Shown in pieces: positions 1,603-24,558 of a stretch of DNA of 64,000 bases. Both the position numbers and the translations under genes were made by a program. The stretch's first letter is position 1, and the number at the start of each line of letters is the position of its first letter. The stretch covers positions 81 through 64,080 of the forward strand of contig CAVPWX010000013.1 in NCBI GenBank assembly GCA_963709605.1, written 5' to 3'. Below the pieces are notes generated by a model, which was not told the DNA's origin, made no database searches, and saw only the letters and a program-made list of their open reading frames with translations. Origin of the DNA: an uncultured Chloroflexia bacterium. Lineage in GTDB: Bacteria > Chloroflexota > Limnocylindria > Limnocylindrales > CSP1-4.

Positions 1603-2675
1603 GAATCCTCCTCCGCGGCCCGGGCAAGCTCCTCGGCGATCGCGCGGACCTCCTGGGAGCGGTCCGCGGCGCACACCAGCAGCGCATCCGGCGTGTCGAC
1701 GACGATGGTATCCCGGAGCCCCAGGGTCACGACGAGCCGCCCGCCGGCGAGGACGAGGGTGCCCTCCGACCCGACGTCGCGGCGAGGCCCGGACCCCACC
1801 GCGCCGGCCGGCTCGCCCTCGGCACGGGCCCGGGCGACGAGCGCGTCGCGGAGGGCGGCCCAGCTCCCGAGGTCGCTCCAGCCGACGTCGGCCCGGACCA
1901 TCGCCACGCGCCCCGCCAGCGATGCCGGCTCGAGCACCGCGTAGTCGATGGATGTCGCCCGGACGGTCGCGTAGGCGGCGTCCAGCGCGGCCGGGCCCCC
2001 CGCGACCCAGGCCCGGACGGTGGCCAGGATGTCAGGCGCCGATGCCGCGAGCGCCCCCAGGATGGCGTCGCGCCGCCACAGGAAGATGCCCGCGTTCCAG
2101 GCGACCGGCGCGGGCCCGGCCAGGAGCGCCGCCGCGGCGGCGGCGGCGGGCTTCTCGACGAAGCGGGCGACGGCGTACGCGCCGGGCTCGTCCCGCTCCG
2201 CGGCCGCGACGACGTAGCCGTAGCCGGTCTCCGGCCCGGTCGGCGCGATCCCCAGCGTCACCAGGGGTCCGTCGGCCGCGGCGGCCACCGCGGCCGCGCG
2301 GGCCAGGACGTCTCGGAACCCGGCGACGTCGGCGACGAGATGGTCCGCCGGCAGGACGGCCATGACCTCGCCCGCCTCGCGGTCGAGGGCGAGGGCGGCG
2401 AAGGCGACCGCGGCGGCCGTGTTGCGCCCCGCCGGCTCGGCGAGGACGTTGCCGGGCGGGAGCTCGGGCAGCTCGGCCCGGACCAGCTCGACGTGCCGGC
2501 GGTCGACGACGACGGCGACGTCCTGCGGCCCACCGAGCGCCGGCAGGACGCGCTCGAACGTCGCCCGCAGCAGCGTGCGTTCGCCGAGCAGGGGCAGAAA
2601 CGGCTTGGGCCGGTCGGGCCGGGAGAGCGGCCACAGCCGGGTGCCCCCGCCGCCGGCCAGGATGACGGCGTACAT
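1599..2675 (-). CDS. manC: Mannose-1-phosphate guanylyltransferase
   Basis: ILAGGGGTRLWPLSR..PKPFL, EPAGRNTA, FVEKP, WNAGIF, WSDLGSW motifs. Confidence 0.9.
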   Translation of the reverse strand: MYAVILAGGGGTRLWPLSRPDRPKPFLPLLGERTLLRATFERVLPALGGPQDVAVVVDRRHVELVRAELPELPPGNVLAEPAGRNTAAAVAFAALALDREAGEVMAVLPADHLVADVAGFRDVLARAAAVAAAADGPLVTLGIAPTGPETGYGYVVAAAERDEPGAYAVARFVEKPAAAAAAALLAGPAPVAWNAGIFLWRRDAILGALAASAPDILATVRAWVAGGPAALDAAYATVRATSIDYAVLEPASLAGRVAMVRADVGWSDLGSWAALRDALVARARAEGEPAGAVGSGPRRDVGSEGTLVLAGGRLVVTLGLRDTIVVDTPDALLVCAADRSQEVRAIAEELARAAEEDS

Positions 2676-2774
2676 CCCGCTGATTCTACGGGCCCGGAGA
2701 CGCGCCCATCGGGGCCCTGGCGGGGCCGGGGCGGCGGCCGGGCGTCGCTGATGGTCCCGCCGGCCCGCGCGCCG

Positions 2775-3962
2775 TCAGGCCTCCGGCGGATCGGGGACGG
2801 GGAGCCCGCACTCCGCGGCCAGGAGCTCCGCCTTGTCGGTCCGCTCCCACGGCAGGTCAAGGTCCGGGCGCCCGAAGTGGCCGTAGACGGCGGTCTGGCG
2901 GTAGATGGGGGTCAGCAGGTCGAGCGCCTCGATGATGCACGCCGGGCGCAGGTCGAAGTGGCGGTCGATGACGGCCCGGATCTGCTCGTCGGGCACCCGC
3001 CCGGTCCCGAAGGTCTCGATCGAGAGGGAGAGCGGGTGGGCGATCCCGATCCCGTAGGCGACCTCGAGCTCGAAGCGATCGGCCAGCCCGGCGGCGACGA
3101 CGTTCTTGGCCACCCAGCGCGCCGCGTACGCCGCCGAGCGATCGACCTTCGTGGGGTCCTTGCCGGAGAAGGCGCCGCCCCCGTGGCGGGCCATCCCGCC
3201 GTACGTGTCGACGATGATCTTGCGCCCGGTCAGGCCGGCGTCGCCCATCGGACCGCCGATGACGAAGCGTCCGGTCGGGTTGATGTGCATCACGGGGTCG
3301 GTCGGGCGGAGCTCGTGGGGGATGACGGGGAGGATGACCGCCTCGACGAGGTCGTCGCGCATGTGCGCCGGCGCGTCGGGATCGTGCTGGGCCGCGATGA
3401 GGACGGTCGGCACCCGGACCGGTCGGCCGTGCTCGTACTCCACGGTGACCTGGGTCTTGCCGTCGGGCCGCAGCCAGGGGAGCTGCCCCGACTTGCGAGC
3501 CTCGGCCAGCCGGCGCGCCAGCCGGTGGGCGAGGGCGATCGGCAGCGGCATCAGCTCCGGCGTCTCGCGGCAGGCGAAGCCGAACATCATTCCCTGGTCG
3601 CCCGCGCCGAGCTCGGCGGCGTCCACCCCGCGGGCGATGTCGGGCGACTGCTCCTTGATGCTCACCAGCGCGCCGCAGGTCTGGTAGTCGAAGCCGTAGT
3701 CGGCCTTCGTGTACCCGATCTCGCGCACCGTCTCCCGGATGACGGCCTGGAAGTCGACGTAGGTCTCGGTCGTGATCTCGCCGAGGACGGCGACAAGGCC
3801 GGTGGTCGTGGCCGCCTCGCAGGCCACGCGGGCGTGGGGATCCTCGCGGATGATCGCGTCCAGGATCGCGTCCGAGATCTGGTCGCACATCTTGTCCGGG
3901 TGGCCCTCGGTGACCGACTCGGACGTGAACAGGTAGCTCGGCGCGTCGATGATGCTCGTCAT
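2775..3962 (-). CDS. metK: S-adenosylmethionine synthetase
   Basis: [35 protein letters not shown] signatures. Confidence 0.97.
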
Positions 3963-3985
3963 GGCGGCGGGGAGCGTAGCACGAG

Positions 3986-4049
3986 CGCGTGGCGGCCTCT
4001 CCGCGTGGCGGCCTCTCCGCGTGGCGGCCTCTCCGCGTGGCGGCCTCTC
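3986..4049. repeat. Perfect tandem repeat, 4 x 16 bp (CGCGTGGCGGCCTCTC)
   Basis: Units at 3986, 4002, 4018, 4034, between the sortase-like gene stop and the metK promoter. Confidence 0.95.
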
Positions 4050-4782
4050 ACCGCCCGCAGACGCGGGGCTTCGCCGCCGGCTGGGCCTCGGCCTCCGGCG
4101 CCAGCACCGGATCGCCGACCTGGCGGGCCACGAGCATCACCTTGGTCCCGGTCCGGTACTGGTTCTCGGAGGTCTGGAGGACGAGCGAGTTCGGGGGCAG
4201 GGCGAAGGCCCAGTCGAGCGACTTCTTCGACGGTCGCACGGAGCTGATCCGGTACGTGTAGCGATGGTCGTTCGCGGTCCAGACGGTGACCCGGTCGCCG
4301 AGCATGGCCCGCCCGCCGTTCCGGCGCGAGGCGAGCAGGATCGGCAGGAACATCCCCTCCTGGGCGTGGGCGTAGATGTAGGTCACGCCGCCGGCGCCCG
4401 GGTGCTGGAATGTCGGCGGCCGGAAGTACTCGGCCACGTCGCAGAGGGGCCACGTGGAGTTGCGGGGAGGGGCCACGACCGGGAGGTCGATGCCGAGGCT
4501 CGGGATCGCGACCCGCGTCGGCGCGCCCGCGCGGCCGCTCGCCGGGACCGGCGTGGGCGTCGACGTCGGCTCCGGGGTGACGCCCGGGTCGTAGGCAGGC
4601 GGCGGCCCCGCCGGCCCGGCCGGCGATGGGTCCGGCGACGCGGTGGGCGCCGGCGTCGGGGTCGGGGCTGCGATCGGCGACGGGGCGGGCGGCGACGACG
4701 GGGTCGAGGTGGCCGGGGTCGCGCAGCCGGTCACGACCGCGGCCACCAGGAGCGCCGCCGCGGTGGCGCGTCCGGGGCTCAC
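4048..4782 (-). CDS. Sortase-like lipoprotein with atypical active site (LQTS)
   Basis: Lipobox-like VVTGC, Pro/Thr/Ser-rich linker, then [39 protein letters not shown] sortase-fold pattern; GTG overlaps upstream stop. Confidence 0.75.
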
Positions 4783-11785: not shown

Positions 11786-13584
11786 TCAGGCGGCCGGACC
11801 CGCCTCCTCCGGCCCGGCTGCCGCGCGCGCAAGCAGGGCGCCCGCGGCCGCGCGGACCGCCGCCGCGTCGGGCGCCGCGAGGGCCCCGCGAGCCAGCTCC
11901 GCGAGCTCCTCCCCGCTCACGGCGGCGAGGGCGACGCGGACCTCGTCGAGCGAGCCGGCGTCGGCCGAGAGCTCGTCCACGCCGAGGCCGACCAGGACGA
12001 GGGCGCCCGCCGGGTCGCCGGCCAGCTCGCCGCACACGGCGACGGGGATCCCCGCCGCGTCCGCTCCCGCCACCACGCCGGCCACCGCCCGCAGCACCGC
12101 CGGGTGAAGGGCGTCCTGGAGGTACCCCAGCGTGGCGTTGCCCCGGTCGGCAGCCATGACGTACTGCGTCAGGTCGTTCGTGCCGATGCTGAAGAAGGCG
12201 ACCCGCCGCGCCAGCTCGGGGGCCAGGAAGGCGGCGGCGGGAACCTCGACCATGATCCCGGTGACCATCCGGTCCGCGCAGGGCTGGCCGGCGGCGACGA
12301 CGGCCGCCCGGGCGTCGTCGCGGAGCGACTCCAGGAGGGCCACGTCGTCGAGGGTCGCCACCATCGGCGCCATGACGTGGGGCACCACCCCGGCGAGGCC
12401 GCCCGCCCGCCAGATCGCCCGCAGCTGCGTCCGGAGGAGCTCTGGATCGCCGTAGGCCAGGCGGATCGCGCGGACGCCGAGGAAGGGGTTGGCCTCCGCC
12501 GGCAGGCGAAGGTAGGGGATCCCCTTGTCGCCGCCGATGTCGGCCAGGCGGACGACGACGGGCCGCTCGGGCCCGAACGCCTCGAAGACCCGGCGATAGG
12601 CGGCGACCTGCTCGTCCTCGGTCGGCGGCGCCTGGCGCTGCATGAAGAGGAACTCCGTGCGGAAGAGGCCGACGCCTTCGGCGCCCGCCTCGAGAGCCCG
12701 CGGCGCGTCGTCCGGCGTGCCGATGTTGGCGACCAGGAGCACCCGTTGCCCGTCGGCGGTGGCGCCCGGCCGGCCACGCGCCGCAGCCGCGCGCGCGCGA
12801 CGCCGGGCCAGCGCCGCGTCGCGGGCCGCGAAGGCGGCGCGCTCCGCGGCGTCGGGCGCCAGGACGACCTCGCCCGTGTCGCCGTCCACGGCGAGATCGA
12901 CGTCGCCGCCGCCGGCCGCCCGGCCCGCGGCGTCGAGCGCGGCGAGGATGCCGGACGTGCCGACGATCGCCGGGATCCCCAGGCTGCGGGCGAGGATGAC
13001 CGCGTGGGCGGTGCGTGAGCCGCCCTGCAGGACGATCCCGCGCAGCAGCCCCGCCGGGATCTCGGCCGTCACCGACGGCGGGAGGTCGTCGGCGACCGCG
13101 ATCGCAGGCGCCGCGGGCAGCCGCAGCTGCTCGCCGCGCAGGATGCGGGCGATGCGGGCGCCCACGTCGCGCACGTCCGCGGCGCGTGCCGCCAGGAGCT
13201 CGTCGTCGAGCGCGGCGAGGACCTCGGCCGCGGCATCGGCGGCGGCGACGACCGCGTCCGGCGGCGGCGCGCCCGCCTCCACCCGCTCGACGGCGTCGTC
13301 GACGAGCGTGGGGCTGATCGCGAGGAGCGCCTGGCCGTCGAAGATCCCCGCCTCCTCGTCCCGGCCCGTCGCCCGCACGCGGTCGGCGAGGGCCTCGAGC
13401 TCACGCGGCGGCCGTCTCGGCGGCGGCCCGGACCGCCCCGGCCGGGTCGGGCGCGGCCGGCCGGCCGGCGGCAGCCACGCCATCGGCCGCGGCCGCCGAG
13501 CCGCCCTCCTCGTAGCGCCAGGCCGGGGCGATCGCGATCCCGGGCGCGGCCCCGACGCCCGGCCAGGCGGAGCGTCGCGGTCAT
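11786..13584 (-). CDS. ptsP: PTS enzyme I (PEP-protein phosphotransferase); two apparent frameshifts near 13558 and 13405
   Basis: GGSRTAHAVILAR (phospho-His), GVGLFRTEFLF, EANPFLGVRAIR, SIGTNDLTQY, VCGELAGD; reconstructed N-terminus MTATLRLAGVGAAPGIAIAP with ATG overlapping HPr stop. Confidence 0.9.
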
Positions 13585-13865
13585 TCCAGCGTCTCCCCCA
13601 GGCCGCTCTCGATCAGCGCCTGGAGGCCGGCGATCGCCGCCTCCTCGTCCTCGCCCTCGGCGACGATCCGGACGGTGTCGCCCCTGGCGGCCTTGCCGTG
13701 CGAGAGGACCGCCAGGGCGTCCTTGGCGTTCACGGCCCGGCCGCCGCGGGTGACGTTCTCGAGGGTGATGGCGGAGCGGTAGGCCGCCGCCCCCTTGACG
13801 AAGGTCCCGGCGGGTCGGAGGTGGATGCCGGACGGGTTGCGGATCTCGATCTCGAGGGTGCGCAT
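13581..13865 (-). CDS. ptsH: HPr family phosphocarrier protein
   Basis: 94 aa; NPSGIHLRPA with His15; VNAK motif; AEGEDEEAA. Confidence 0.92.
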   Translation of the reverse strand: MRTLEIEIRNPSGIHLRPAGTFVKGAAAYRSAITLENVTRGGRAVNAKDALAVLSHGKAARGDTVRIVAEGEDEEAAIAGLQALIESGLGETLE

Positions 13866-13879: not shown

Positions 13880-14969
13880 ACGCGGTGGTCGAGTGTCGGG
13901 GACGGATCGGACGAGGCGCCGTCCACCAGCTCGGCGATGCGCGCCGGGCGGCGGGCCAGCTCGGCGCGGAGCGCCGGATCGGAGGCCGTCGCGTCGAGCA
14001 GGCGGGCGAGCGCGGCGTTCACGGGGGTCGGCACGCCCGCCACGCGGCCCGCGCGGACGACCGCCCCGTTCAGCCAGGACGCCTCGGTGGGGCCCTCGGC
14101 CGACCGCAGGTGGAGCCGCAGCGAGGGCGACTTCCCGCCGCGTGCCCGGCCCACGACGACGGCGGAGGACGGCCCGGGAGAGGGGCGCCGGCAGGCGGAT
14201 GGCAAGCGCCAGGAGCCGCACGTCGGCGCCGGGGAGGGCCACCACCGGCAGGCGCGCGGCGCGCATGACCGCGAGAGCCTCCAGCAGCTGGCGTCGCTCG
14301 ACCGCGAAGAGACGCGGGTCGGCGTAGACGGCGGCCGGGTCGCGGTCCGCCAGGGCGCTGAGGGCGTTCCCCGCCAGGTTGCCGAGGAGCTTCGACCACT
14401 TCATGGCCCGCGGATCCGCGAGCCGCCTGGCCGGGAGCCCGGCCCCCGAGAACGCGGCGACCAGCGCGTCGACGAGGTGCGTCGACCGGGCCCGCCGCCG
14501 GCGCCAGGGCGATGCCGCCCCGACCGCGCCAGCGAACCTCCGCGGGACCGGGTCGCTCGACGGGTGAGGTGAGCGAGCCCGCGATGAGCCCGATCCCCGG
14601 GCGCGCGGAGGCCACGAGCTCCTCCGCCCCGATCCCGTTCTGGATCGTCAGAACCGGCGCGGCCGGCCACACAGCCAGGTCGTCGAGGGCCCCCGCCAGG
14701 TCGAACATCTTGACGGCCACGACGACGAGGTCCGGGGCCCCGGCGAGCTCCGCCGGGGCGACGGCCCGGCTGACCCGCGCCTCGATGGTGCGGCCGTCGG
14801 GCTCGTGGAGCGTGAGCGTCTCGGGCGCGTCGCGGGGGACCCGCCGGTCGACGAGCGTCACGGAGCTGCCCGCCGCGGCGAGGAGGCCGCCCAGCAGCGT
14901 CCCGACGGCGCCCGCCCCGAGGACGGCGACGCGCCGCGGCGCCTCCCCGGCCGCCGCGGCGGCGCTCAC
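13880..14969 (-). CDS. Ketopantoate reductase (ApbA/PanE)-family oxidoreductase; apparent frameshifts near 14483 and 14165; 3' end uncertain
   Basis: VLGAGAVG Rossmann motif, VAVK, IQNGIG, KWSKLLGN, PSL..HL, TEASWLNGAVV, PTPVN spread over three frames. Confidence 0.8.
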
Positions 14970-15373
14970 TCGGGCAGCTTCGGGAGGCTCGCCGCGCCCT
15001 CGGCCGCCGCAAGCACGACGTCGAGGGGGTCGCCGATGCTCGCCTGGAGGGCGGCCACGACGGCACCCTCCACGAGCGGCCCCCCGGAGAGGCGGACCCG
15101 CCCGGCGACCTCCTCGCCGAGGAGCTCGAGGGCCGTCTGGGTGGCGAGGACGGCGCTGCCGAGGTCGACGAGGACGAGCACCCCCGCCCCGCCGTCCGCG
15201 GCCTCGATCGCCGCCATGATCGCCGCGGCGTCGGTGCCGAGCGACCCGTCGGCGATTCCCCCGGTCCCCTCGATGCGCAGGTCCGGGCCCGCCATCTGGC
15301 GGGCGAGCTCCACGGTCCCCGCGGCAATCTGCGCGGAGTGGCTGACGACGACGATCCCGACGAGCGGCTCCAT
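14966..15373 (-). CDS. dhaM: PTS-dependent dihydroxyacetone kinase phosphotransferase subunit (EIIA-Man-like DhaM), copy 1
   Basis: GIVVVSHS, LARQMA, GSLGTD, VDLGSAVL, GPLVEGAVVAA. Confidence 0.9.
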   Translation of the reverse strand: MEPLVGIVVVSHSAQIAAGTVELARQMAGPDLRIEGTGGIADGSLGTDAAAIMAAIEAADGGAGVLVLVDLGSAVLATQTALELLGEEVAGRVRLSGGPLVEGAVVAALQASIGDPLDVVLAAAEGAASLPKLPE

Positions 15374-15383: not shown

Positions 15384-15770
15384 CTACGACGCGTCGTTGA
15401 TGATCGCCGCCAGCAGGGCAACCCCGTAGACGACGGTGACGATCCCGACGACCACGAGGACGTTCGTGATGCGCCGCTCCGTCCGCTCCGAGAACCCGAA
15501 GTCGAAGAGGATCGCGCGCACGCCGAGGAGGGCGTGGTACGTCACCGTCCCGAGGAAGGCGACCTCGACCACGACGACCACCGGGTTCCCGAGCCAGGCG
15601 ATGACGTCGTCGTAGAAGCGAAGGCCCGTGGGCACGATGAAGTGCTGGGCGACCATGTGGAGCGCCAGGAGCACGAGCAGCGCGACGCCCGTGACGACCT
15701 GGACGACGAAGGCCGGGATCCCGCGGGATCCGGCGGCCGGGCGCTCGAGCGCCGGCTGGTCGGTGGTCAT
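15384..15770 (-). CDS. SdhD-like hydrophobic membrane anchor
   Basis: Three hydrophobic helices; QVVTG, LHMVAQH, YHALLGVRAILFDF pattern of complex II anchors. Confidence 0.85.
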   Translation of the reverse strand: MTTDQPALERPAAGSRGIPAFVVQVVTGVALLVLLALHMVAQHFIVPTGLRFYDDVIAWLGNPVVVVVEVAFLGTVTYHALLGVRAILFDFGFSERTERRITNVLVVVGIVTVVYGVALLAAIINDAS

Positions 15771-15777
15771 GGCTCTC

Positions 15778-16200
15778 CTACCCCTCCCCGCCGAAGATGC
15801 GGAGGGCGCCGACGAGGGTGACCAGGCCGGCGACGACGAACGCGGCGATGAAGAGCGCCCGCTGGCGACTCACCACCAGGCCCATCCCCACGAGGCCGAC
15901 GCGGATCCCGTTCAGCCCGTGGAACAGCATCCCGGCGAGGAGGACCACGTCGAACACGAGGACCGGCGGGCTCAGGGCGATCTCGACGAAGGCGTCCCAG
16001 GCGCCGGGGCCCTGGACCAGCAGCGACAGGATCACCAGGTGCATGTACAGGTACACGACGAGGCCGATCCCGCTCAGGCGGTTCAGGATGAAGGCATAGC
16101 CCCCGAGGCGGCGGCCGCGGGGATCGAACCAGCCGACGAAGCCCCGGCGCCGGGCCGGGCCGGGCTCCGGCCGCCTCGGCTCGACGGTCGTGCTGGCCAT
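15778..16200 (-). CDS. SdhC-like cytochrome b subunit
   Basis: NRLSG, YLYMH, FHGLNGIR; three TM helices; ATG overlaps the SdhB-like stop. Confidence 0.88.
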   Translation of the reverse strand: MASTTVEPRRPEPGPARRRGFVGWFDPRGRRLGGYAFILNRLSGIGLVVYLYMHLVILSLLVQGPGAWDAFVEIALSPPVLVFDVVLLAGMLFHGLNGIRVGLVGMGLVVSRQRALFIAAFVVAGLVTLVGALRIFGGEG

Positions 16201-16946
16201 CAGCGTGTCCCTCCGAAGGAGAAGAGGCGTCGCGCCCGGGCGGCGGTTGCCGCCCGGCGCAGCCGCATGATCGCGGCGGCCGGGTCGACCCCCGACGGGC
16301 AGGCCTCGGTGCACTCCCAGGCCAGGTGGCAGCGCCACGCGGCCTGCTCGTCGTCCATCAGCCGCAGGACCGGGCCGGGGTCCCGCCCGCGGGGCTCGTC
16401 GACGAGGCGCCAGGCCGCGGCAAGGGCGGCCGGCCCCACGTAGCGCGGGTCGCTGCCGGCCACCGGGCAGGCGGAGAGGCAGATCCCGCACTCGATGCAG
16501 TCCTCGTAGCGCTCGAGCTCGTCGATCCCCTCGGCCATCTCGGCGCCCGGGATCATCTCCGAGACCCGCACGAGCGGGCGGCCGGCTTCGTCGAACTCGT
16601 CGTAGAAGGCGTCCATGTCGACGACGAGGTCGGTGACCACGGGGATGTTGCCGAGCGGCTCCACCGTGACCTCGCCGCCCTCGGGGACGGGGGTCACGCA
16701 GGCGAGGCCCTCCCGGCCGTTCACCCGCATCCCGCAGGTCCCGCACGACGCGTGGAAGCAGGAGTGGCGGAACGTCAGGGTCGGGTCCAGCTCGCGGCGG
16801 ATGGAGACGAGCGAGTCGAGGATCGTGGAGCGCGGCCCCACGGCCACGTCGAAGGTGTCGTAGCGGAGCTCCCCGGGGTCGTCGCCCTCCTTGCGGCGCG
16901 AGACGACGAAACGGGTGGTGCGGAGCTCCGCGGCAGTCTCGGTCAT
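16200..16946 (-). CDS. SdhB/FrdB-like iron-sulfur subunit
   Basis: DPTLTFRHSCFHASCGTC..LAC (2Fe-2S), DLVVD, CIECGICLSACP and CHLAWECTEACP (4Fe-4S/3Fe-4S). Confidence 0.93.
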   Translation of the reverse strand: MTETAAELRTTRFVVSRRKEGDDPGELRYDTFDVAVGPRSTILDSLVSIRRELDPTLTFRHSCFHASCGTCGMRVNGREGLACVTPVPEGGEVTVEPLGNIPVVTDLVVDMDAFYDEFDEAGRPLVRVSEMIPGAEMAEGIDELERYEDCIECGICLSACPVAGSDPRYVGPAALAAAWRLVDEPRGRDPGPVLRLMDDEQAAWRCHLAWECTEACPSGVDPAAAIMRLRRAATAARARRLFSFGGTR

Positions 16947-16956
16947 CGCTCCGCCC

Positions 16957-18144
16957 CTACGCCGCGTAGTAGGCGGTGTGGGGAAGGGTGACGATCTCCC
17001 GGGTCTGGCACGCCGCCTCGACGCCGAGCTTGCGGCAGATCACGTCGGCCGTCGTCTCGGCCATCGCCCGCAGGGTGGTGCCCTTGCCGCCGGAGATCGT
17101 CACGAAGCCCTCGACGCCGTCGGTCTCGCGGTGGTCGAAGCACTTGAACGTCCGGCTCAGCTCGCGGCCCGTGTCAGCATCTCGCGACCCGATGAGCGGG
17201 CGCGCCGCCGACCAGGCGGCCCGGCGCTCGGCGTGGCGGACGGCGGGGACCATCTTCGAGCCCTCGCTGTACATCCGCTCGACGTGGTCCTCGGGCACGC
17301 CGAGGTCGTCGGGATCGTCCACGACCCAGGAGCTGGTGCCGACCACGGAGAGCCCGCGCTGGGGGACGATGATGTCGCCGTCGCCCGAGGGGTGCAGGCG
17401 GTTGATCACCATGTTGCAGACGCGGCCGCGGACGGCGAGCAGGACGCCGGGCGACGGCCGGATCGGCACGTCGCAGCCCGCCATCACGGCGAGCTGCTCG
17501 GCCCACGGCCCGGTGGCGTTCACGACGAGATCGCCGCGGATCTCATCGTCGACGCCGTTCACGAGGTCGCGGACGCGGATCCCGGAGACGAGGCGGTCGT
17601 GGACCAGCAGCTCGGTCACCAGGGTCCAGGGACGGATGACCGCGCCCCCGGCCTTCGCGCTGGCGAAGAACCGGAGGGGCATCCGCATGGCGTCCATCGT
17701 GGCGTCGGGGACCTGGACGGCCATCTTGACCTCGGGGTTGAGGTTCGGCTCCAGGCGGAGCGCCTCCTCGCGGCTGACCCGGCGGGCCGGGATGCCGCTG
17801 GCAAGGCACGATTCGAAGAAGAGCGGCTCGTAGGCCACGTCCTCGTCCGTGATGGCGACGAAGAGGCCGTCGTTCTCCTCGAACGACCCGGGGCAGACCC
17901 GGCGGAGGATCTCGCGCTCCTCGATGCACTCGACGGCGGACTCGCGGTCCTTGACCGCGTAGCGCGCGCCGGAGTGGAGCAGGCCGTGGTGCCGGCCGGT
18001 GGTGCCCGAGGTGAGCTCGCCGCGCTCGACGAGCGTGACCCGGAAGCCGCGCAGGATCAAGTCGTGAGCGAGGGCGCCCCCGGTGCCGCCGCCGCCCACG
18101 ATGACGACGTGATAGGGCTGCCGGGGAAGTCGCGTGATGGTCAT
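16957..18144 (-). CDS. glpA: FAD-dependent glycerol-3-phosphate dehydrogenase, short GlpA type (395 aa)
   Basis: IVGGGGTG, GTTGRHHGLLHSGARYAVKD, NATGPWA, SGDGDIIVP, TISGGKGTTLRAMAE; directly downstream of glpK. Confidence 0.88.
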   Translation of the reverse strand: MTITRLPRQPYHVVIVGGGGTGGALAHDLILRGFRVTLVERGELTSGTTGRHHGLLHSGARYAVKDRESAVECIEEREILRRVCPGSFEENDGLFVAITDEDVAYEPLFFESCLASGIPARRVSREEALRLEPNLNPEVKMAVQVPDATMDAMRMPLRFFASAKAGGAVIRPWTLVTELLVHDRLVSGIRVRDLVNGVDDEIRGDLVVNATGPWAEQLAVMAGCDVPIRPSPGVLLAVRGRVCNMVINRLHPSGDGDIIVPQRGLSVVGTSSWVVDDPDDLGVPEDHVERMYSEGSKMVPAVRHAERRAAWSAARPLIGSRDADTGRELSRTFKCFDHRETDGVEGFVTISGGKGTTLRAMAETTADVICRKLGVEAACQTREIVTLPHTAYYAA

Positions 18145-18170: not shown

Positions 18171-18205
18171 GCTGCCCGGGGCCCCGCGACGGGGCCCCGG
18201 GCAGC
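18171..18205. terminator. Perfect 16-bp GC stem-loop between glpK and glpA (terminator or mRNA-stabilising hairpin; no U-tract)
   Basis: GCTGCCCGGGGCCCCG-cga-CGGGGCCCCGGGCAGC. Confidence 0.5.
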
Positions 18206-18218: not shown

Positions 18219-19718
18219 CTAGTCGACCCAGCCGAACGTGCGGGTGACGGCCTTCTTCCACTGCGCGTACTCGGCGTCGACCTGGGCGGCGTCCATCGTC
18301 GGATGCCACTCGTGGTCCTTCGCCCAGTTCGCGCGGAGGTCCTCGACCTCAGCCCAGTACCCGACCGCCAGGCCGGCCGCGTAGGCCGCCCCGAGGGCCG
18401 TCGTCTCGGCGACCTTCGGCCGGATGACCGGGACCTTCAGGACGTCGGACTGGAACTGCATGAGGAGGTTGTTGTAGACCATGCCACCGTCGACCTTGAG
18501 GGCCGTCAGCGGAACGCCGGAGTCGGCGTTCATCGCGTCGAGCACCTCGCGGGTCTGCCAGGCGGTCGCCTCGAGGACGGCCCGGGCGATGTGGCCCTTG
18601 TTGACGTACCGGGTGAGGCCCGCGATGACGCCGCGGGCATCGTTCTTCCAGTACGGCGCGAAGAGCCCGCTGAACGCCGGGACGAAGTAGACGCCGCCGT
18701 TGTCCTCGACGGTGGCCGCGAGGGCCTCGATGTCGGGGGACTTCGCGATCAGCCCGATGTTGTCGCGGATCCACTGCACGAGGGCGCCGGTGATGGCGAT
18801 CGAGCCCTCGAGCGCGTACACGGCCGGCTGGTCGCCGATCTTGTACGCGAGCGTCGTGAGGAGGCCGCTCTTGCTCGGGACCGCCTTCGTGCCCGTGTTG
18901 AGGAGCATGAAGCAGCCCGTGCCGTACGTGTTCTTCGCCTCGCCGGGCGAGAAGCACGTCTGGCCGAAGAGGGCGGCCTGCTGGTCGCCCAGGTCGCCGG
19001 CGACGGGGACGCCGGCGAGATCGCCGACGGCCATGCCGTAGATCTGGGACGAGGCCTTGACGGCCGGGAGCATCTTCTCCGGCACGCCGAGGAGCGCCGT
19101 GATCTCCGGGTCCCAGGCGAGGGTGGTGTAGTTGAACATGAGCGTCCGGCTCGCGTTGGAGACGTCCGTCACGTGGACGCCGCCGTTCACGCCGCCGGTG
19201 AGGTTCCAGATGCACCAGGTGTCGATGTTGCCGAAGAGCAGGTTCCCCGCCTCGGCCTCGGCGCGCGCGCCGGCGACGTTGTCGAGGACCCACTTGGCCT
19301 TCGGGCCGGAGAAGTAGGTCGCCAGCGGCAGGCCGGTCTTCGGGCGGAGGCGGTCCGGGCCACCGTCCTTCTCGAGGGCGTCGCAGATGTCCTTCGTCCG
19401 GGTGTCCTGCCAGACGATCGCGTTGTAGACCGGCTTGCCGGTCCGCTTGTCCCAGACGACCGTCGTCTCGCGCTGGTTGGTGACGCCGACGGCGGCGAGG
19501 TCCGCGGCGCTGAGGTGGGCCTTGCCGAGGGCGGCCTTGATGACATCCAGGCTGCGCGCCCAGATCTCCATCGGGTCGTGCTCGACCCAGCCCGGCTTCG
19601 GATAGATCTGCTCGTGCTCCATCTGATCGACCGCCACGACCTCGCCGGCGTGGTTGAAGATCATGAAGCGGGTGCTCGTGGTCCCCTGGTCGAGGGCCCC
19701 CACGAAGTTCCTTGGCAT
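18219..19718 (-). CDS. glpK: Glycerol kinase
   Basis: [57 protein letters not shown]. Confidence 0.97.
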
Positions 19719-19756: not shown

Positions 19757-20389
19757 CTAGCGCCCGGCCCAGACCTCTGCGGCGGACCGCAGGAGGAGAT
19801 GCGAGGACGTCGCGCCGGGATCCTGGTGCCCGGCCGACCGCTCGCCCAGGTAGCTCGCCCGGCCCTTGCGGGCGACGAGCGGCACCGTGGCGAGCATGCC
19901 CTCCTGCGCCCCATCGGCCATCCGGGCCACGGCATCCCCGACGGACGCTCCGTCGGCGATCGCGGCCCGGAGGGCGTCCCGGGCGGGGATGAGGGCGTCG
20001 ACCATCGTCTTGTCCCCGGGCTCGGCCTTCCCGATCCGGAGGACCCCGCCGAGGCCTGTCTCAAAGGCCCCCGCGAACTCCTCCAGGGTCAGGGCTTCCT
20101 TTCCGGCAACGGCGCCCCCCATCTGCATGAAGAACATCCCGTAGAGCGGGCCGCTGGCGCCCCCGACCGTCGAGACGAGGGTGGTGCCGACGGTCTTGAG
20201 CGTCTGGCCGATGTCCCCACCGGGGAGGCCGTCCAGCTTGCCGATCACGGCCGTGAAGCCACGATCCATGTTGATCCCGTGATCGGCGTCTCCGATCGCC
20301 GAATCCAGCTCCGTGAGGTACGCCTTGTTCTCCGTCACGACGGCGGCGAACCGGCGAACCCAGGCGAGGATGTCGTCGTGCGAGATCAT
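19757..20389 (-). CDS. dhaL: Dihydroxyacetone kinase ADP-binding subunit DhaL, copy 1
   Basis: [48 protein letters not shown]. Confidence 0.95.
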
Positions 20390-20443: not shown

Positions 20444-21442
20444 CTAGACGCCCCAGCGGAGGCCCGGCGTGTTGACCGGCGCATCCCAGTACTTCGTCAG
20501 CTCGTCATCGAGGCGGAGCAGGGTGATCGAGCAGCCGGCCATCTCGAGCGAGGTGATGTAGCTGCCGACCAGGTTGCGGGCGATCGTGATCCCACGGGCG
20601 TCGAGGATCTTCTTGAGCTCCGCGAAGATGACGTAGAGCTCGATGAGCGGCGTGCCGCCCATCCCGTTGACGAAGGCCAGGACCTTGTCGCCGGCCTTGA
20701 AGGGGAGGTCGTCGAGGATCGGCGTGGCGAGCATGCCGGTGACCTCGGCCGCGGTGGCGACCTTCATCCTGGTCCGGCCCGGCTCGCCGTGGATCCCGAT
20801 GCCGATCTCCATCTCGTCGTCGCCGAGCTCGAAGGTCGGCTTGCCGGCCTGCGGGACGGTGCAGCTCGTGAGAGCCATGCCCATCGAGCGGACGTTGTCC
20901 TGGACCTTCTGGCAGAGCGCGGTGACCGTCGCGAGGTCGGCGCCCGCCTCGGCGGCGGCACCGACGATCTTCTCGGCGAGGACGGTGCCGCCCACGCCGC
21001 GGCGGCCCGCGGTGTAGAGCGAGTCCTTGACCGCGACGTCGTCGGCGATGACGACGCTGGTGACCTCGATCCCCTCGGCCCGGGCCATCTCGGCCGCGAG
21101 CTCGAAGTTCATGATGTCGCCGGTGTAGTTCTTGACGATGTGCAGGACACCGGCGCCGCCGTCGACCGCCTTGGTCGCGGCGAGCATCTGGTCCGGCACG
21201 GGCGAGGTGAAGACGGCGCCGGGGCAGGCAGCATCGAGCATGCCCATCCCGACGAAGCCGCCGTGCATCGGCTCGTGGCCGCTGCCGCCGCCCGAGATCA
21301 CGCCGACCTTGCCCTTCTTGGGGGCGTCGGCGCGCACGACGACGTTGGGCTCGATGACGCGGACGAGATCCGCGTGCGCCGCGGCGACGCCGAGCAGGGC
21401 GTCGTCGACGACCGTCTCGGGAGCATTGATGAGCTTCTTCAT
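20444..21442 (-). CDS. dhaK: Dihydroxyacetone kinase subunit DhaK
   Basis: [51 protein letters not shown]; GGAGG RBS. Confidence 0.96.
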
Positions 21443-21570
21443 CCGTTCCTCCAATGACATGGTGCCGGGTGCTCGGGAACGTGTGCTGGACGGGTGCGCG
21501 CCGGCGGCGAGGCCGTCGTGCCGCCGGCGCGCGATGCGTGCAGGGTCAGGCCGAGACGATCAGGCGCTGA

Positions 21571-22336
21571 TCAGCTCGGGACGACCAGGGGGATGAACCC
21601 ATACTGGTACACGAGCGCCGCGACGAAGCCGCCGACGAGCGGGACCGACCACCGGGATCCAGGAGTACCCCCAGTCGGAGCCGCCCTTGCCCGCGATCGG
21701 CAGGATCGCGTGCATGATGCGCGGCCCCAGGTCGCGGGCCGGGTTGATCGCGTATCCGGTCGTCCCGCCGAGGGACAGGCCGATGACCAGGACGAGCAGG
21801 GCCACGTTCAGCGCGCCCATGTCGCCCATCGCGCCGCTGTTGCCGAAGGTGAGGATCACGAAGACCAGGACGAAGGTCCCGATGACCTCGGAGACGAAGT
21901 TCCAGGCGGGGTTGCGGATGGCCGGCGCGGTGCAGAAGACCGCCAGCTTGAGGCCCTTGTCTTCCGTCTCGGCCCAGTGCGGGTAGTAGTGAAGGAAGAC
22001 GAGGAAGGCGCCGATGAACGCGCCGACGAACTCGCCGGCCACGTAGATCCCGGCATACACGGACTCGAGGTCGCCCCCGGCGATCGCCGTGTTGACGAGC
22101 AGGCCCAGGGTCACCGCCGGGTTCAGGTGCGCGTTGCCGAGCGGCAGGTCGCCGCCCACGCCGGCCGCCACGATGACGCCGACGAAGACGGCCATTGCCC
22201 ACGCGAAGGTGATGACGATCCAGCCGCTGGCATTCGCCTTCGACTTGGCGAGGAGAACGCCTGCGACCACGCCGTCGCCGAGGAGGATCAGGATCATCGT
22301 CCCGAAGACCTCGGACATGAAGATATTCAGTTCCAT
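21571..22336 (-). CDS. glpF: MIP family glycerol uptake facilitator; one extra base near 21643
   Basis: HLNPAVT and AINPARD (aquaglyceroporin-type); removing one base restores WIPVVGPLVGGFVAALVY...TGA at 21571. Confidence 0.92.
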
Positions 22337-22660: not shown

Positions 22661-23335
22661 TCAGACGTCGGCGGGGACGGCGGGGTCGGCGGCTGCGTCG
22701 GCCAGGGCCCGCAGCAGGATCGCGCTCGAGGCCGCCCCCGGGTCGAGGTGGCCGATGGAGCGCTCGCCGAGGTAGCTCGCCCGGCCCTTCGTGGCCAGCA
22801 GGGGGATCGTCCGCTGGGCGCCCGCCTCCGCTGCGGCGGCCGCGCGTGCCGTCGCGCCGGCGAGGGTGGCACCCTCCTCCAGCGCCGCCGCGTATGCCGC
22901 CCGGGCCGGGACGAGGGCGTCGAGCATCGTCTTCTCGCCCGGCGTCGCCCGCCCCAGCGCCGCGACCGCGTCCACTGCCGAGGCGAAGGCGGCGGCGGCC
23001 CTCGCCTCGCGGGCGACGGGATACCCGGCGACCTCCCTCTGGTCGAGCTCCGCCAGGGCGGCCCCGGCGCGCTGGAACGCCCGCCCGTAGAGGGCGCCGC
23101 TGGCTCCGCCGACGGTCCCCATGAGGACGCGCCCGGCGGCAGCCAGCACCGCCGCCGGCGGCTCGCCGGGCAGGTCGTCGGCGTCGATCCGGCGGGCCAG
23201 CTCGCGGAAGCCCCGGTCGAGGTTGATCCCGTGGTCACCGTCGCCGATCGCGGCGTCGAGGTCGGTGAGCCGCTCGCGGGCCTCGGCGACGCGCCCGGCG
23301 GCCAGCCGCAGCCAGCGGGGCAGGAGCCCGTCCAT
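22661..23335 (-). CDS. dhaL: DhaL paralogue, copy 2
   Basis: [51 protein letters not shown]. Confidence 0.9.
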   Translation of the reverse strand: MDGLLPRWLRLAAGRVAEARERLTDLDAAIGDGDHGINLDRGFRELARRIDADDLPGEPPAAVLAAAGRVLMGTVGGASGALYGRAFQRAGAALAELDQREVAGYPVAREARAAAAFASAVDAVAALGRATPGEKTMLDALVPARAAYAAALEEGATLAGATARAAAAAEAGAQRTIPLLATKGRASYLGERSIGHLDPGAASSAILLRALADAAADPAVPADV

Positions 23336-23763
23336 CAGGCCGCGGGCCCGGCGAGCCAGTCCGGCGGCAGCTTGTCGGCCTCGCGCTCGGCGTCGGCGAC
23401 GGCGAGGACGCGGTCGAGAGACGCCCCGCCGGCCGCCTCGACCGCCGCTCGCACGGCACCTTCCACGAGCGGGCCACGGCTGACCCGGATGCGGGTCCGC
23501 TCGGCGGCCGACATCTCCTCGAGCGCCATCTCGAGGGCGAGGACCGCGCTGCCGAGGTCGAGGAGGACCACCGCGCCGTCGCCGCCGGAGGCCGCCAGCG
23601 CCGCGCGCATCGCGTCGCGGATCGCCGGGCTGCTCGTCCCGAGGTTGCCCACCGCGGTCCCGCCCGCGATCGCCACCGGCACCGCCGGGGCGCTCTGGGC
23701 GACCATCGCCCGCAGCGCCCGGAGCAGCTCGGGGCTGTGGCCCACCAGCACCAGGGAGGTCAT
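23335..23763 (-). CDS. DhaM-like EIIA paralogue, copy 2
   Basis: MTSLVLVGHS, GNLGTS, LDLGSAVL, GPLVEGAV; stop overlaps dhaL2 start. Confidence 0.85.
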   Translation of the reverse strand: MTSLVLVGHSPELLRALRAMVAQSAPAVPVAIAGGTAVGNLGTSSPAIRDAMRAALAASGGDGAVVLLDLGSAVLALEMALEEMSAAERTRIRVSRGPLVEGAVRAAVEAAGGASLDRVLAVADAEREADKLPPDWLAGPAA

Positions 23764-23844
23764 CCCTCTCGCTCCCTCCGGTCCCGCGGCGACGACGGCC
23801 GGGCGTCGCGTCCCGCGGCTCGCCGCCGTAGACTCAGGCGGCCC

Positions 23845-24558
23845 ATGAACAGGATAGGGTCTGCCGGGCCCCGCCCGCCCGCCGGTGCCGCTCCGGCCCG
23901 CATCGATGCGTTCGCCGCGGCGGACGTCGTCCGCTTCGTCGAGCGCGCGGCTTCGTCCCTGGCGCGGCACGAGGCGCTCCTCGATCGCCTCGACGCGGCG
24001 CTCGGCGACGGCGACCACGGCGCCAACATGACGATCGGGTTCGGCGTCGCCCTCCCCGCCGTGCGGGCCGGGCTCGCCGAGCGGCCCGACGACGTCGGCG
24101 AGCTGCTGCGGCTCCTGGGCCACAGCCTCGTCGCGAGCGTCGGCGGCGCCAGCGGACCCCTCTACGGCACCGCCTTCATCGAGGCGGGGTTCGCTCTCGC
24201 CGGGAGCCCGGCCGCGGGACCCCGCGAGCTCGCGGACGCGCTCGAGGCCGGGCGGGCGGGGCTGGCTCGCCGGGGGCGCTGCGCGATCGGCGACAAGACG
24301 ATCCTCGACGCCCTCGACCCTGCGGTCCGGGCGCTCCGCGCGCAGGCCGACGCCGGCGCCCCGCTCGACGCCTGCGTCGCCGCCGCCGCCGCCGGCGCGG
24401 CGGGCGGGATGCGGGCGACGATCCCGCTCGTCGCCCGCCGCGGGCTGGCGCTCCGTCTCGGCGAGCGATCCCGCGGCCACCGCGACCCCGGCGCCGTCTC
24501 GTGCTTCCTGCTCCTCGGGGCGATGGCCCGCGCCGTCCGCGGCGAGGCGACGACGTGA
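23845..24558 (+). CDS. DhaL paralogue, copy 3 (degenerate GRASY motif)
   Basis: [52 protein letters not shown]; ATG 10 nt after TAGACT. Confidence 0.88.
   Translation: MNRIGSAGPRPPAGAAPARIDAFAAADVVRFVERAASSLARHEALLDRLDAALGDGDHGANMTIGFGVALPAVRAGLAERPDDVGELLRLLGHSLVASVGGASGPLYGTAFIEAGFALAGSPAAGPRELADALEAGRAGLARRGRCAIGDKTILDALDPAVRALRAQADAGAPLDACVAAAAAGAAGGMRATIPLVARRGLALRLGERSRGHRDPGAVSCFLLLGAMARAVRGEATT

What the first reader, a model, noticed from the sequence alone, without database searches (positions are those of the whole stretch)
15384..18144. Hybrid respiratory complex: GlpA-type G3P dehydrogenase paired with SdhB/C/D-like subunits, no SdhA
Seen: glpK is followed by a 395-aa GlpA-type flavoprotein, then (gaps of 10 nt or less, one overlap) an SdhB-like protein with all three Cys clusters and SdhC- and SdhD-like anchors. 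No sdhA/frdA, glpB or glpC is in the window, and glycerol/DHA genes flank the block on both sides. Known: characterised G3P oxidation uses GlpD, GlpABC or GlpO, and SdhBCD normally partner an SdhA/FrdA-family flavoprotein. Inference: the G3P dehydrogenase has taken the place of SdhA on a complex-II Fe-S wire and membrane anchor, giving a four-subunit G3P:quinone oxidoreductase. I know of no characterised example, but cannot search the literature.
Basis: partly seen in the sequence, partly recalled or inferred. Interest (0 to 1): 0.92.

Follow-up and report, generated by a model that had tools for sequence, protein, structure and literature searches.

The report
Glycerol-phosphate dehydrogenase borrowing complex II parts
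A soil-type Chloroflexota bacterium carries a glycerol operon in which a shortened glycerol-3-phosphate dehydrogenase sits next to its own copies of the iron-sulfur and membrane subunits of respiratory complex II, an untested enzyme design that was so far noted in print only for a few archaea.

Summary
On the minus strand, glpK is followed by a 395-aa GlpA that lacks the usual C-terminal domain. Next come an SdhB-like protein with all 11 cluster cysteines and two Sdh_cyt anchor proteins, with gaps of 10 nt or less.

- glpA-sdhB-sdhC-sdhD is conserved in 28 of 28 loci found through the SdhB-like protein, in 17 of 20 short-GlpA loci from a 401-genome Chloroflexota sample, and in 16 genomes of a 401-genome sample of a second phylum (Actinomycetota).
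- Long GlpA genes in the same phylum keep glpB instead.
- The linked SdhB copies form their own clade (100/100 support).
- Every carrier genome tested also has a separate canonical SdhB.
- A complex model scores 0.90 against 0.25 for the best control, with the 2Fe-2S loop docked on GlpA.
- Natural GlpA-SdhB fusion proteins exist.
- The anchors resemble the diheme type A anchor of M. smegmatis Sdh2, and four histidines are invariant.

It is not unprecedented. Schmerling et al. 2025 drew "GlpA-SdhBCD" for Thermofilum pendens from synteny and stated that bacterial glpA goes with glpBC. I found no biochemical test in print. My verdict is a bacterial member of a predicted, uncharacterised kind, of moderate interest.

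The parts
21560..22336 (-). glpF-like glycerol facilitator (258 aa from the ATG at 22336)
   Evidence: PF00230 MIP 112.1 bits; start found.
20444..21460 (-). dhaK (dihydroxyacetone kinase, Dak1 subunit)
   Evidence: PF02733 451.9 bits.
19757..20389 (-). dhaL (Dak2 subunit)
   Evidence: PF02734 183.1 bits.
18219..19718 (-). glpK glycerol kinase, 499 aa
   Evidence: TIGR01311 729.5 bits, cut-off 590.35.
18171..18205 (-). GC-rich hairpin (15-16 bp stem) in the 74-nt glpK-glpA spacer, with no U-tract after it
   Evidence: Sequence read. The fold is -47.5 kcal/mol, z = -3.32. In the 11 closest relative loci folded, a hairpin sits at the same place but with different stem letters.
16957..18144 (-). 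Short GlpA-type FAD-dependent glycerol-3-phosphate dehydrogenase, 395 aa, without the C-terminal domain of canonical GlpA
   Evidence: PF01266 150.5 bits. TIGR03377 427.7 bits over model positions 1-374 of 530. Closest solved chain is GlpD 3da1_A, E = 1.8e-23.
16200..16946 (-). SdhB-like iron-sulfur subunit, 248 aa, with ligands for 2Fe-2S, 4Fe-4S and 3Fe-4S clusters
   Evidence: TIGR00384 181.9 bits, cut-off 88. The 11 cysteines are invariant in 29 of 29 aligned sequences. Best solved match is E. coli SdhB 1nek_B, E = 5.4e-38.
15778..16200 (-). SdhC-like membrane anchor, 140 aa from the ATG at 16200, with His54 and His94 (His55/His95 in the 141-aa translation used in the calls)
   Evidence: PF01127 46.8 bits. 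Best solved match is 6lum_C, E = 3.8e-12, with both histidines aligned to His47 and His87 of that chain. Both are invariant in 43 of 43 sequences.
15384..15770 (-). SdhD-like membrane anchor, 128 aa, with His38, His43 and His79
   Evidence: PF01127 52.1 bits. Best solved match is 6lum_C, E = 3.4e-9. The three histidines are invariant in 40 of 40 sequences.
14966..15373 (-). dhaM (EIIA-Man-type phosphoryl donor of DHA kinase)
   Evidence: TIGR02364 123.5 bits, cut-off 98.25. The ATG at 15373 lies 10 nt after the sdhD stop.
13581..13865 (-). HPr
   Evidence: PF00381 82.3 bits.
11786..13483 (-). ptsI (enzyme I)
   Evidence: PF02896 327.8 bits, plus PF00391 and PF05524.

Best explanation
The four genes encode one membrane-bound glycerol-3-phosphate:quinone oxidoreductase built from two lineages. 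Menaquinone as the acceptor is inferred from knowledge of the phylum.

Proposed path:
1. Glycerol enters through GlpF and is phosphorylated by GlpK.
2. The short DAO-fold flavoprotein GlpA oxidises glycerol-3-phosphate to DHAP.
3. Instead of using its own C-terminal 2Fe-2S domain plus GlpB and GlpC, GlpA docks on a dedicated SdhB paralogue.
4. Electrons run from FAD through 2Fe-2S, 4Fe-4S and 3Fe-4S into a two-subunit SdhC/SdhD-type anchor and on to the quinone pool. The anchor has four invariant histidines and probably holds two b hemes, as in type A complex II.

What is shown here: the genes, their domains and ligand residues, conserved linkage, a separate SdhB clade, the existence of fusions, and a supportive interface model.

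What is inferred: the substrate, complex formation in the cell, heme content, the quinone species, and whether the quinone is reduced at the proximal or the distal site.
For: (1) Domains and ligands.

(2) Conserved linkage.
- 28 of 28 loci found through the SdhB-like protein (40-88% identity) have glpA immediately upstream and sdhC plus sdhD downstream.
- In a 401-genome Chloroflexota sample, 20 short-GlpA loci (50-100% identity) were examined. 19 have sdhB-like next to glpA and 17 have sdhB, sdhC and sdhD.
- 0 of 10 long-GlpA loci have it. 2 of 2 long ones tested are full-length GlpA followed by GlpB.
- In a 401-genome sample of the phylum of G401 (Actinomycetota by record title and treekit), 16 genomes have the four-gene block.

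(3) No alternative partner.
- The own genome has no GlpB, GlpC or GlpD match over cut-off.
- sdhA lies on another contig with its own sdhB and anchor-like genes.
- 5 of 5 other carrier genomes hold a second, higher-scoring SdhB elsewhere: 251-266 bits against 154-189 bits.

(4) Trees. The 57 linked SdhB copies separate from 9 unlinked copies at a branch with 100/100 support. In the GlpA tree the label needs only 2 changes.

(5) Complex model. The ipSAE is 0.90 (median of three runs) against a best control of 0.25. That mark was reached by 58 of 80 solved complexes and by 2 of 110 mismatched pairs. The runs share at least 82% of their contacts, and the partner pLDDT is at least 80. The interface is SdhB residues 58-70 and 83-84, which is the 2Fe-2S cysteine loop, against GlpA residues 42-51, 151-154, 235-245, 261-267, 308-311 and the C-terminal tail 389-395.

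(6) Fusions. 13 of 44 long relatives (695-752 aa) carry PF01266 plus PF13085 in one chain. 4 of 4 rescanned were confirmed. Their SdhB part is 54% and 43% identical to the window's SdhB-like protein.

(7) Co-inheritance. Identities of GlpA and SdhB to the window across the same 28 loci track each other: Spearman 0.69, Pearson 0.94. These loci are kin, so this shows co-inheritance only.
Against: - No experiment exists for any member, so substrate, cofactors and assembly are all inferred.
- The complex score is a model's own confidence. SdhA-SdhB complexes are abundant among solved structures, so docking at the 2Fe-2S domain may partly be learned likeness. My own alignments were used, so the calibration counts hold only roughly.
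- One short GlpA (L059) has no sdhB next to it. One locus (L056) has sdhB but no recognisable sdhC/sdhD in the 600 bases held.
- Some 'fusions' could be gene-calling read-through in high-GC DNA. P0014 (1486 aa) looks like merged ORFs. The linkers are long and low in complexity.
- The linked-versus-unlinked tree holds only 9 unlinked SdhB copies from two phyla, so it is not a global phylogeny.
- The canonical sdh locus of this genome is frame-broken in the assembly. Its state in the living cell is unknown.
Confidence: 0.75

Rival explanations
1. The short GlpA works alone, or with some other anchor, as a monotopic enzyme like GlpD or the Sulfolobus GlpA-CoxG. In this reading the adjacent sdhB/C/D-like genes serve a succinate dehydrogenase or fumarate reductase flavoprotein encoded elsewhere.
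For: Short GlpA-type enzymes can reduce quinones without partner Fe-S subunits in Sulfolobus (PMC11962113, passages seen). One short GlpA (L059) lacks sdhB next to it.
Against: The sdhA of this genome has its own sdhB and anchors beside it. 5 of 5 carrier genomes have a second SdhB. Linkage holds down to about 40% SdhB identity and across two phyla. Fused GlpA-SdhB chains exist. The model places GlpA on the 2Fe-2S loop.
Confidence: 0.06
2. The complex forms as proposed, but the flavoprotein oxidises a substrate other than sn-glycerol-3-phosphate, such as another small hydroxy or amino compound handled by DAO-family enzymes.
For: The protein falls below the GlpA equivalog cut-off: 427.7 bits against 552.8. 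No substrate-binding residue was mapped here. DAO-family enzymes have diverse substrates (the list of weaker family matches).
Against: The shortfall is explained by the missing C-terminal domain, because model positions 1-374 match end to end. glpK lies directly upstream in 25 of 28 loci, and the other 3 start at a contig end. The genome shows no other G3P dehydrogenase over cut-off, although it does carry glpK and glpF.
Confidence: 0.08
3. The complex forms and uses G3P/DHAP, but physiologically it runs with a different partner or direction. It might act as a quinol:DHAP reductase, or pass electrons through the two hemes to an acceptor other than the membrane quinone pool.
For: Diheme anchors support transmembrane electron transfer, and complex II enzymes are reversible (PMC7447783, passages seen). 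A diheme wire is not obviously needed for an exergonic G3P-to-menaquinone reaction. That last point rests on recalled redox potentials, not on a call.
Against: The operon is catabolic in make-up: glpF, glpK and the DHA kinase system. No gene for another acceptor was seen in the conserved block.
Confidence: 0.07

Closest known systems
Predicted 'GlpA-SdhBCD' glycerol-3-phosphate dehydrogenase of Thermofilum pendens and relatives (Schmerling et al., Commun Biol 2025, PMC11962113; section 11 read in full, plus passages)
   Same: A GlpA-type gene with a divergent or short C-terminus is followed by homologues of succinate dehydrogenase subunits b, c and d. The paper proposes that these provide membrane anchoring and electron transfer, inferred from synteny.
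   Different: That case is archaeal, and the paper states that in Bacteria glpA consistently goes with glpB and glpC. This one is bacterial (Chloroflexota, also found in Actinomycetota). I could not obtain Thermofilum sequences, so common descent is untested. Neither case has been tested biochemically.
GlpABC anaerobic glycerol-3-phosphate dehydrogenase (E. coli type)
   Same: The catalytic subunit is closest to the GlpA family: TIGR03377 is the best family match at 427.7 bits. Electrons leave the flavoprotein through Fe-S clusters to the quinone pool.
   Different: The C-terminal third of GlpA is missing (model positions 375-530). No GlpB or GlpC is found in the genome. The Fe-S wire and anchor come from the complex II family instead. 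Canonical GlpA-GlpB loci coexist in the same phylum.
Type A (diheme, two-anchor-subunit) succinate:menaquinone oxidoreductase, M. smegmatis Sdh2, PDB 6LUM (PMC7447783, passages)
   Same: The SdhB has three clusters. The SdhC/SdhD-type anchors give their best solved matches to 6lum_C. Histidines align with the published heme ligands His C47 and His C87.
   Different: The flavoprotein is a DAO-fold GlpA, not an SdhA/FrdA-family protein. The substrate is presumably G3P. No SdhF was looked for. The SdhD-like protein matches 6lum_D only weakly (E = 0.28).
GlpD (aerobic, monotopic) and the GlpA-CoxG enzyme of Sulfolobus acidocaldarius
   Same: These are FAD-dependent G3P dehydrogenases of the same superfamily that feed the quinone pool. 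The Sulfolobus enzyme is likewise a truncated GlpA (PMC11962113).
   Different: Those enzymes reduce quinone directly from the flavoprotein and use no Fe-S subunit or heme anchor. No CoxG-type partner is in this block.

Membership tests
GlpA/GlpD-type FAD-dependent glycerol-3-phosphate dehydrogenases (DAO superfamily) | DAO-type FAD-binding fold with an N-terminal dinucleotide-binding motif | tested here: met
   PF01266 150.5 bits over residues 12-343, cut-off 27.9. G17, G19 and G22 are at least 90% conserved in 29 sequences.
GlpA/GlpD-type FAD-dependent glycerol-3-phosphate dehydrogenases (DAO superfamily) | Oxidises sn-glycerol-3-phosphate to DHAP | not testable with these tools
   This is inferred from the best family match (GlpA) and from glpK lying directly upstream in 25 of 28 loci.
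Canonical GlpABC | Full-length GlpA with a C-terminal Fe-S domain, scoring over the equivalog cut-off | tested here: not met
   427.7 bits against a cut-off of 552.8, with only model positions 1-374 of 530 matched. Long relatives in the same phylum score 673-677 bits over positions 1-528.
Canonical GlpABC | GlpB and GlpC partners encoded with glpA | tested here: not met
   No TIGR03378 or TIGR03379 match over cut-off in the genome, which is 80% complete. The only GlpC-model match is the ferredoxin part of the SdhB-like gene itself.
Complex II superfamily (succinate:quinone oxidoreductase / fumarate reductase) | Iron-sulfur subunit with ligands for 2Fe-2S, 4Fe-4S and 3Fe-4S | tested here: met
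   TIGR00384 181.9 bits, cut-off 88. 11 cysteines are invariant in 29 of 29 sequences.
Complex II superfamily (succinate:quinone oxidoreductase / fumarate reductase) | Sdh_cyt-type membrane anchor subunit(s) | tested here: met
   PF01127 46.8 and 52.1 bits, cut-off 25.8. There are about three hydrophobic stretches in each protein (crude hydropathy).
Complex II superfamily (succinate:quinone oxidoreductase / fumarate reductase) | SdhA/FrdA-family flavoprotein as the catalytic subunit | tested here: not met
   The adjacent flavoprotein is DAO family. Its PF00890 match is weak (32.1 bits, Rossmann part only). The true sdhA lies on contig C7.
Type A (diheme) complex II anchors | Two histidines in each of the two anchor subunits as axial ligands of hemes bP and bD | tested here: inconclusive
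   The residues are present, invariant (43 of 43 and 40 of 40) and aligned to His47/His87 of 6lum_C. Heme binding itself cannot be tested here, and the SdhD-like protein aligns to chain C rather than chain D.
Predicted GlpA-SdhBCD type of Thermofilales (PMC11962113) | glpA followed by sdhB, sdhC and sdhD homologues | tested here: met
Predicted GlpA-SdhBCD type of Thermofilales (PMC11962113) | Same clade as the Thermofilum proteins | not testable with these tools
   No Thermofilum sequence could be fetched.

The most novel reading that the evidence does not exclude
This would be a third, widespread bacterial class of respiratory glycerol-3-phosphate dehydrogenase. A DAO-fold flavoprotein has replaced SdhA on a complete complex II chassis. 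The two hemes carry electrons across the membrane to a distal menaquinone site, so that G3P oxidation is coupled to, or gated by, the membrane potential. The module would be mobile between Chloroflexota, Actinomycetota, Bacillota and Archaea, and sometimes fused into a single GlpA-SdhB chain.
Probability: 0.25. Interest if true: 0.7.

Novelty: new member of a known kind. Interest (0 to 1): 0.5.

Why it matters
Textbook bacterial G3P oxidation uses GlpD, GlpABC or GlpO. This block adds a fourth design to bacteria.

- It is present in about 4-5% of the genomes sampled in two large soil phyla.
- It corrects the printed generalisation that bacterial glpA always travels with glpBC.
- It is a clean natural case of module swapping in respiratory enzymes. 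The Fe-S wire and heme anchor of complex II accept a flavoprotein of a different fold. This bears on how complex II evolved and on which features of SdhB define its flavoprotein interface.
- It makes annotation more accurate. These 'succinate dehydrogenase' subunits should not be counted as TCA-cycle genes in metabolic reconstructions of Chloroflexota and Actinomycetota genomes.
- A fused form is named by its source as coming from an Actinotalea strain, so the hypothesis may be testable at the bench.

Tried and rejected
- Comparison with the archaeal Thermofilum genes was not possible.
- The ESM Atlas look-up listed short DAO/GlpA-like clusters in several phyla, including Thermoplasmatota. It gives no context, so I treat it only as a lead.
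- I did not map G3P-binding residues. The solved GlpD chain 2qcu_A ranked sixth, and only the top alignment was printed. I did not want to cite residue numbers from memory.
- P0014 (1486 aa; DAO, Fer2_3, HPr and enzyme I domains) was rejected as evidence of fusion because it looks like merged ORFs.
- I considered whether the C7 sdh locus is the orthologue of the canonical sdhB of the same-genus genome G253. It is only 38-46% identical in protein, so it is probably a different paralogue. That genus-level question was left open.
- FAD-to-2Fe-2S distance could not be measured because the complex tool returns contacts only.
- Literature searches for a bacterial or biochemical description found only PMC11962113 and its preprint. 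PMC5059525 (passages) only tabulates GlpA/GlpD presence by phylum.
- The supplements of PMC11962113, which hold the sequence lists behind its Figs 8-9, could not be seen. They may contain bacterial members of the Thermofilum subcluster.
Full report
**What is in the window**

The region lies in DNA of about 75% G+C. On the minus strand there is one tightly packed gene row:
- glpF (21560-22336)
- dhaK (20444-21460)
- dhaL (19757-20389)
- glpK (18219-19718)
- a 395-aa GlpA-type flavoprotein (16957-18144)
- an SdhB-like protein (16200-16946)
- an SdhC-like protein (15778-16200)
- an SdhD-like protein (15384-15770)
- dhaM (14966-15373)
- HPr (13581-13865)
- ptsI (11786-13483)

All were assigned by Pfam or NCBIfam.

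The junctions were read directly. There are 10 nt between glpA and sdhB. The sdhB stop and the sdhC start overlap by 1 nt. There are 7 nt between sdhC and sdhD, and 10 nt between sdhD and dhaM. The glpK-glpA spacer is 74 nt and holds a hairpin.

**The four proteins**

The flavoprotein is a DAO-family enzyme (PF01266, 150.5 bits). Its best family is GlpA (TIGR03377, 427.7 bits), but only model positions 1-374 of 530 are matched and the score stays under the 552.8 cut-off. It is a GlpA without the C-terminal domain. The nearest solved chain is a GlpD (3da1_A, E = 1.8e-23). No solved structure is close.

The SdhB-like protein passes the SdhB/FrdB family cut-off (181.9 bits against 88). Its best solved matches are E. 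coli SdhB (1nek_B, 5.4e-38) and M. smegmatis Sdh2 SdhB (6lum_B, 1.4e-37). In an alignment of 29 sequences spanning 42-100% identity, all 11 cluster cysteines are invariant.

Both anchor proteins match PF01127. Their best solved match is chain C of 6LUM (E = 3.8e-12 and 3.4e-9). The 6LUM paper gives the heme ligands as His D107-His C87 (bP) and His D65-His C47 (bD) (PMC7447783, passage seen). In the printed alignments, His55 and His95 of the SdhC-like translation align with C47 and C87. These are His54 and His94 when counted from the ATG. His38 and His79 of the SdhD-like protein align with the same two positions.

These four histidines, and also His43 of the SdhD-like protein, are invariant in 43 of 43 and 40 of 40 homologues. 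The anchor therefore looks like a two-subunit, two-heme (type A) anchor. Heme binding itself is inferred.

**Is the linkage conserved?**

A scan of one genome per species using the SdhB-like protein gave 28 loci. All are Chloroflexota MAGs by record title, except one labelled Actinomycetes. SdhB identity runs from 40 to 88%.
- In 28 of 28 loci, tblastn finds glpA immediately upstream, sdhC and sdhD immediately downstream, and dhaM after them.
- glpK is upstream in 25 loci. The other 3 loci begin at a contig end.

A second survey started from GlpA, not SdhB, over 401 Chloroflexota genomes including the window's own. It found 22 places in 21 genomes with 50-100% identity and open frames of about 400-640 aa. 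It then found a separate band of 38-46% identity with open frames of mostly 520-610 aa.
- Of the 20 short-type loci fetched, 19 have the sdhB-like gene next to glpA.
- 17 of them have sdhB, sdhC and sdhD.
- One locus ends inside sdhB (L055), one has sdhB only (L056), and one has none (L059).
- Of the 10 long-type loci fetched, none has sdhB.
- Two long ones that I tested are full-length GlpA (673 and 677 bits, model positions 1-526 and 1-528) followed by GlpB.

A third survey covered 401 genomes of the phylum of G401, the genome behind the 'Actinomycetes' record; treekit names it Actinomycetota. It found 19 genomes with a strong SdhB-like match. 16 of them have glpA-sdhB-sdhC-sdhD, and most have dhaM as well. 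The 3 weakest (38-39% identity) have no glpA.

The block is thus a conserved module in two bacterial phyla, and it alternates with the canonical glpAB arrangement.

**Is there another partner for these subunits?**

The window's genome is 3.17 Mb in 21 contigs and 80% complete. No GlpB, GlpC or GlpD match reaches its cut-off. The only PF01127 matches are the two genes here.

A true sdhA lies on contig C7. It is followed by two anchor-like reading frames and its own sdhB. In this assembly all of them are split between frames. I cannot tell whether that reflects assembly error or decay.

In 5 of 5 other carrier genomes, a second SdhB is found elsewhere. It scores higher against the family model than the linked copy does: 251-266 bits against 154-189 bits.

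That scenario is not what is seen.

**Trees**

The SdhB tree held 66 different copies from loci L014-L041 and L048-L107. Rows with under 180 aligned residues, rows with stops, and duplicates were dropped. The 57 GlpA-linked copies separate from the 9 unlinked ones at a branch with 100/100 support.

The unlinked sample is small and comes from two phyla. This shows a distinct paralogue, not its place in the whole family. The Actinomycetota copies sit inside the Chloroflexota copies, but the relevant fork has 91/83 support and is not starred. Transfer between the phyla is therefore suggested, not shown.

The quick GlpA tree held 60 rows, with 19 near-duplicate loci left out. In it, the label 'sdhB next door' needs two changes. 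One is the split between short and long GlpA. The other is L059.

**Physical association**

A two-chain model was built from my alignments A1 and A2. It gave ipSAE 0.91, 0.90 and 0.89, with a median of 0.90, against a best control of 0.25.
- The tool's mark was reached by 58 of 80 solved complexes and by 2 of 110 mismatched pairs.
- The runs share at least 82% of their contacts, and the partner pLDDT is at least 80.
- The tool's verdict is that the model supports binding but does not show it.

The confident contacts put SdhB residues 58-70 and 83-84 against the GlpA segments 42-51, 151-154, 235-245, 261-267 and 308-311, plus the C-terminal tail. The SdhB residues form the loop that carries the 2Fe-2S cysteines.

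In DAO-family enzymes the segment after the first Rossmann strand lies by the flavin. That point is recalled, not tested here. The geometry therefore suits FAD-to-2Fe-2S transfer. No DAO-fold/SdhB complex appeared among the solved chains that the sequence searches returned. Learned likeness to SdhA-SdhB complexes still cannot be excluded.

Independent of the model, a search among proteins of 693-2000 aa found 44 relatives of the GlpA at E ≤ 1e-30.
- 13 of them (695-752 aa) carry PF01266 together with PF13085, the SdhB 2Fe-2S domain. One is named by NCBI as from Actinotalea sp. and one as from a Bacillota MAG.
- I rescanned four, and all four have DAO, then Fer2_3, then Fer4_8 in that order.
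- The C-terminal halves of two are 54% and 43% identical to the window's SdhB-like protein.
- Most of the other long hits carry PF04324 and look like GlpA-GlpB fusions.

Fusion of the two partners in other genomes is classical evidence that they work together. The caveat is that the linkers are long and of low complexity. One 1486-aa entry is probably merged ORFs.

**Mechanism proposed**

Glycerol enters through GlpF and is phosphorylated by GlpK. G3P is then oxidised at the FAD of the short GlpA. Electrons pass through the three clusters of the dedicated SdhB paralogue into the SdhC/SdhD-type anchor and on to the quinone pool. DHAP joins glycolysis.

The DHA kinase genes (dhaK, dhaL, dhaM, HPr, enzyme I) are interleaved in the same row and give a second route to DHAP.

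Menaquinone as the acceptor rests on recalled knowledge of these phyla. So does the statement that G3P-to-menaquinone transfer is exergonic (about -190 mV to about -74 mV). Whether the quinone is reduced near the 3Fe-4S cluster or at a distal site beyond the second heme, as in 6LUM, is open. This is the most interesting unknown, because a distal site would couple the reaction to the membrane potential.

**Comparison with what is known**

The literature searches found one relevant work: Schmerling et al., Commun Biol 2025 (PMC11962113) and its preprint. I read its section 11 in full and passages of the abstract, introduction, results and discussion.
- It characterises the Sulfolobus GlpA-CoxG enzyme.
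- From phylogeny and synteny, it describes a subcluster of 'Thermofilum-related species' in which glpA is followed by putative sdhB, c and d. This is drawn as 'GlpA-SdhBCD (T. pendens)' in Fig. 9b.
- It states that in Bacteria canonical glpA consistently co-occurs with glpB and glpC.
- In what I read, it reports no experiment on the SdhBCD type.

The architecture is therefore known as a prediction. What is new here:
- it occurs in Bacteria, at about 4-5% of sampled genomes in two phyla;
- the short-GlpA/SdhBCD versus long-GlpA/GlpB partition holds within one phylum;
- the anchor looks diheme;
- fused forms exist;
- the interface model is supportive.

I file it as a new member of a known, still uncharacterised, kind.

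**Verdict**

Novelty is moderate because of the 2025 archaeal description. Interest is 0.5. The hypothesis is clear, widespread and directly testable, and it corrects both annotation practice and a printed generalisation, but it is not a new category.

Noticed in passing
window 18171-18205 (minus strand), glpK-glpA spacer: A perfect GC-rich hairpin (15-16 bp stem, -47.5 kcal/mol, z = -3.3) sits just after the glpK stop, with no U-tract. In the 11 closest relative loci folded there is a hairpin at the same place with different stem letters, which suggests a conserved RNA structure. It could be a partial terminator, a processing site or an mRNA stabiliser that sets the glpK-to-glpA expression ratio.
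   Followed up: partly
window 22661-24558: Just upstream of the operon lie extra DHA-kinase paralogues. There is a second DhaL (22661-23335, minus), an EIIA-Man/DhaM-like domain at the C-terminal end of the ORF ending at 23335 (23335-23757, minus), and a third DhaL-domain protein on the plus strand (23737-24558). All were confirmed by Pfam. No second DhaK was looked for.
   Followed up: partly
G000 contig C7, 562220-565804 (outside the window): The genome's other sdh locus (sdhA, two anchor-like frames, sdhB) is split between reading frames in every gene in this assembly. The glpA-sdhBCD block is intact. Its SdhB pieces are only 38-46% identical to the canonical SdhB of a same-genus genome, so it may be a different paralogue. 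I cannot tell assembly error from gene decay.
   Followed up: partly
L088, L090-L104 (genomes G401-G777) compared with L050-L054: The Actinomycetota GlpA copies are 67-76% identical to the window's GlpA (L104: 52%). That is closer than those of Anaerolineae-type Chloroflexota (46-52%). In the SdhB tree they nest among Chloroflexota copies at a fork that is not starred. This hints at transfer of the whole module between phyla.
   Followed up: partly
P0015-P0044: About 30 long proteins (927-1066 aa) look like single-chain GlpA-GlpB fusions. Most have precomputed PF01266 plus PF04324 and further FAD-domain families, and some are named GlpA or GlpB by their sources. They parallel the GlpA-SdhB fusions.
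   Followed up: no
L040 and L041 (Anaerolineae MAGs), about 1378-4580: Two tandem glpK copies (78-79% identical to the window's GlpK) precede the glpA-sdhBCD block in these two loci.
   Followed up: no
G205: One genome of the window's family holds two short-type GlpA genes (74% and 64% identity) on different contigs. Only the first locus was fetched and shown to have sdhBCD.
   Followed up: no
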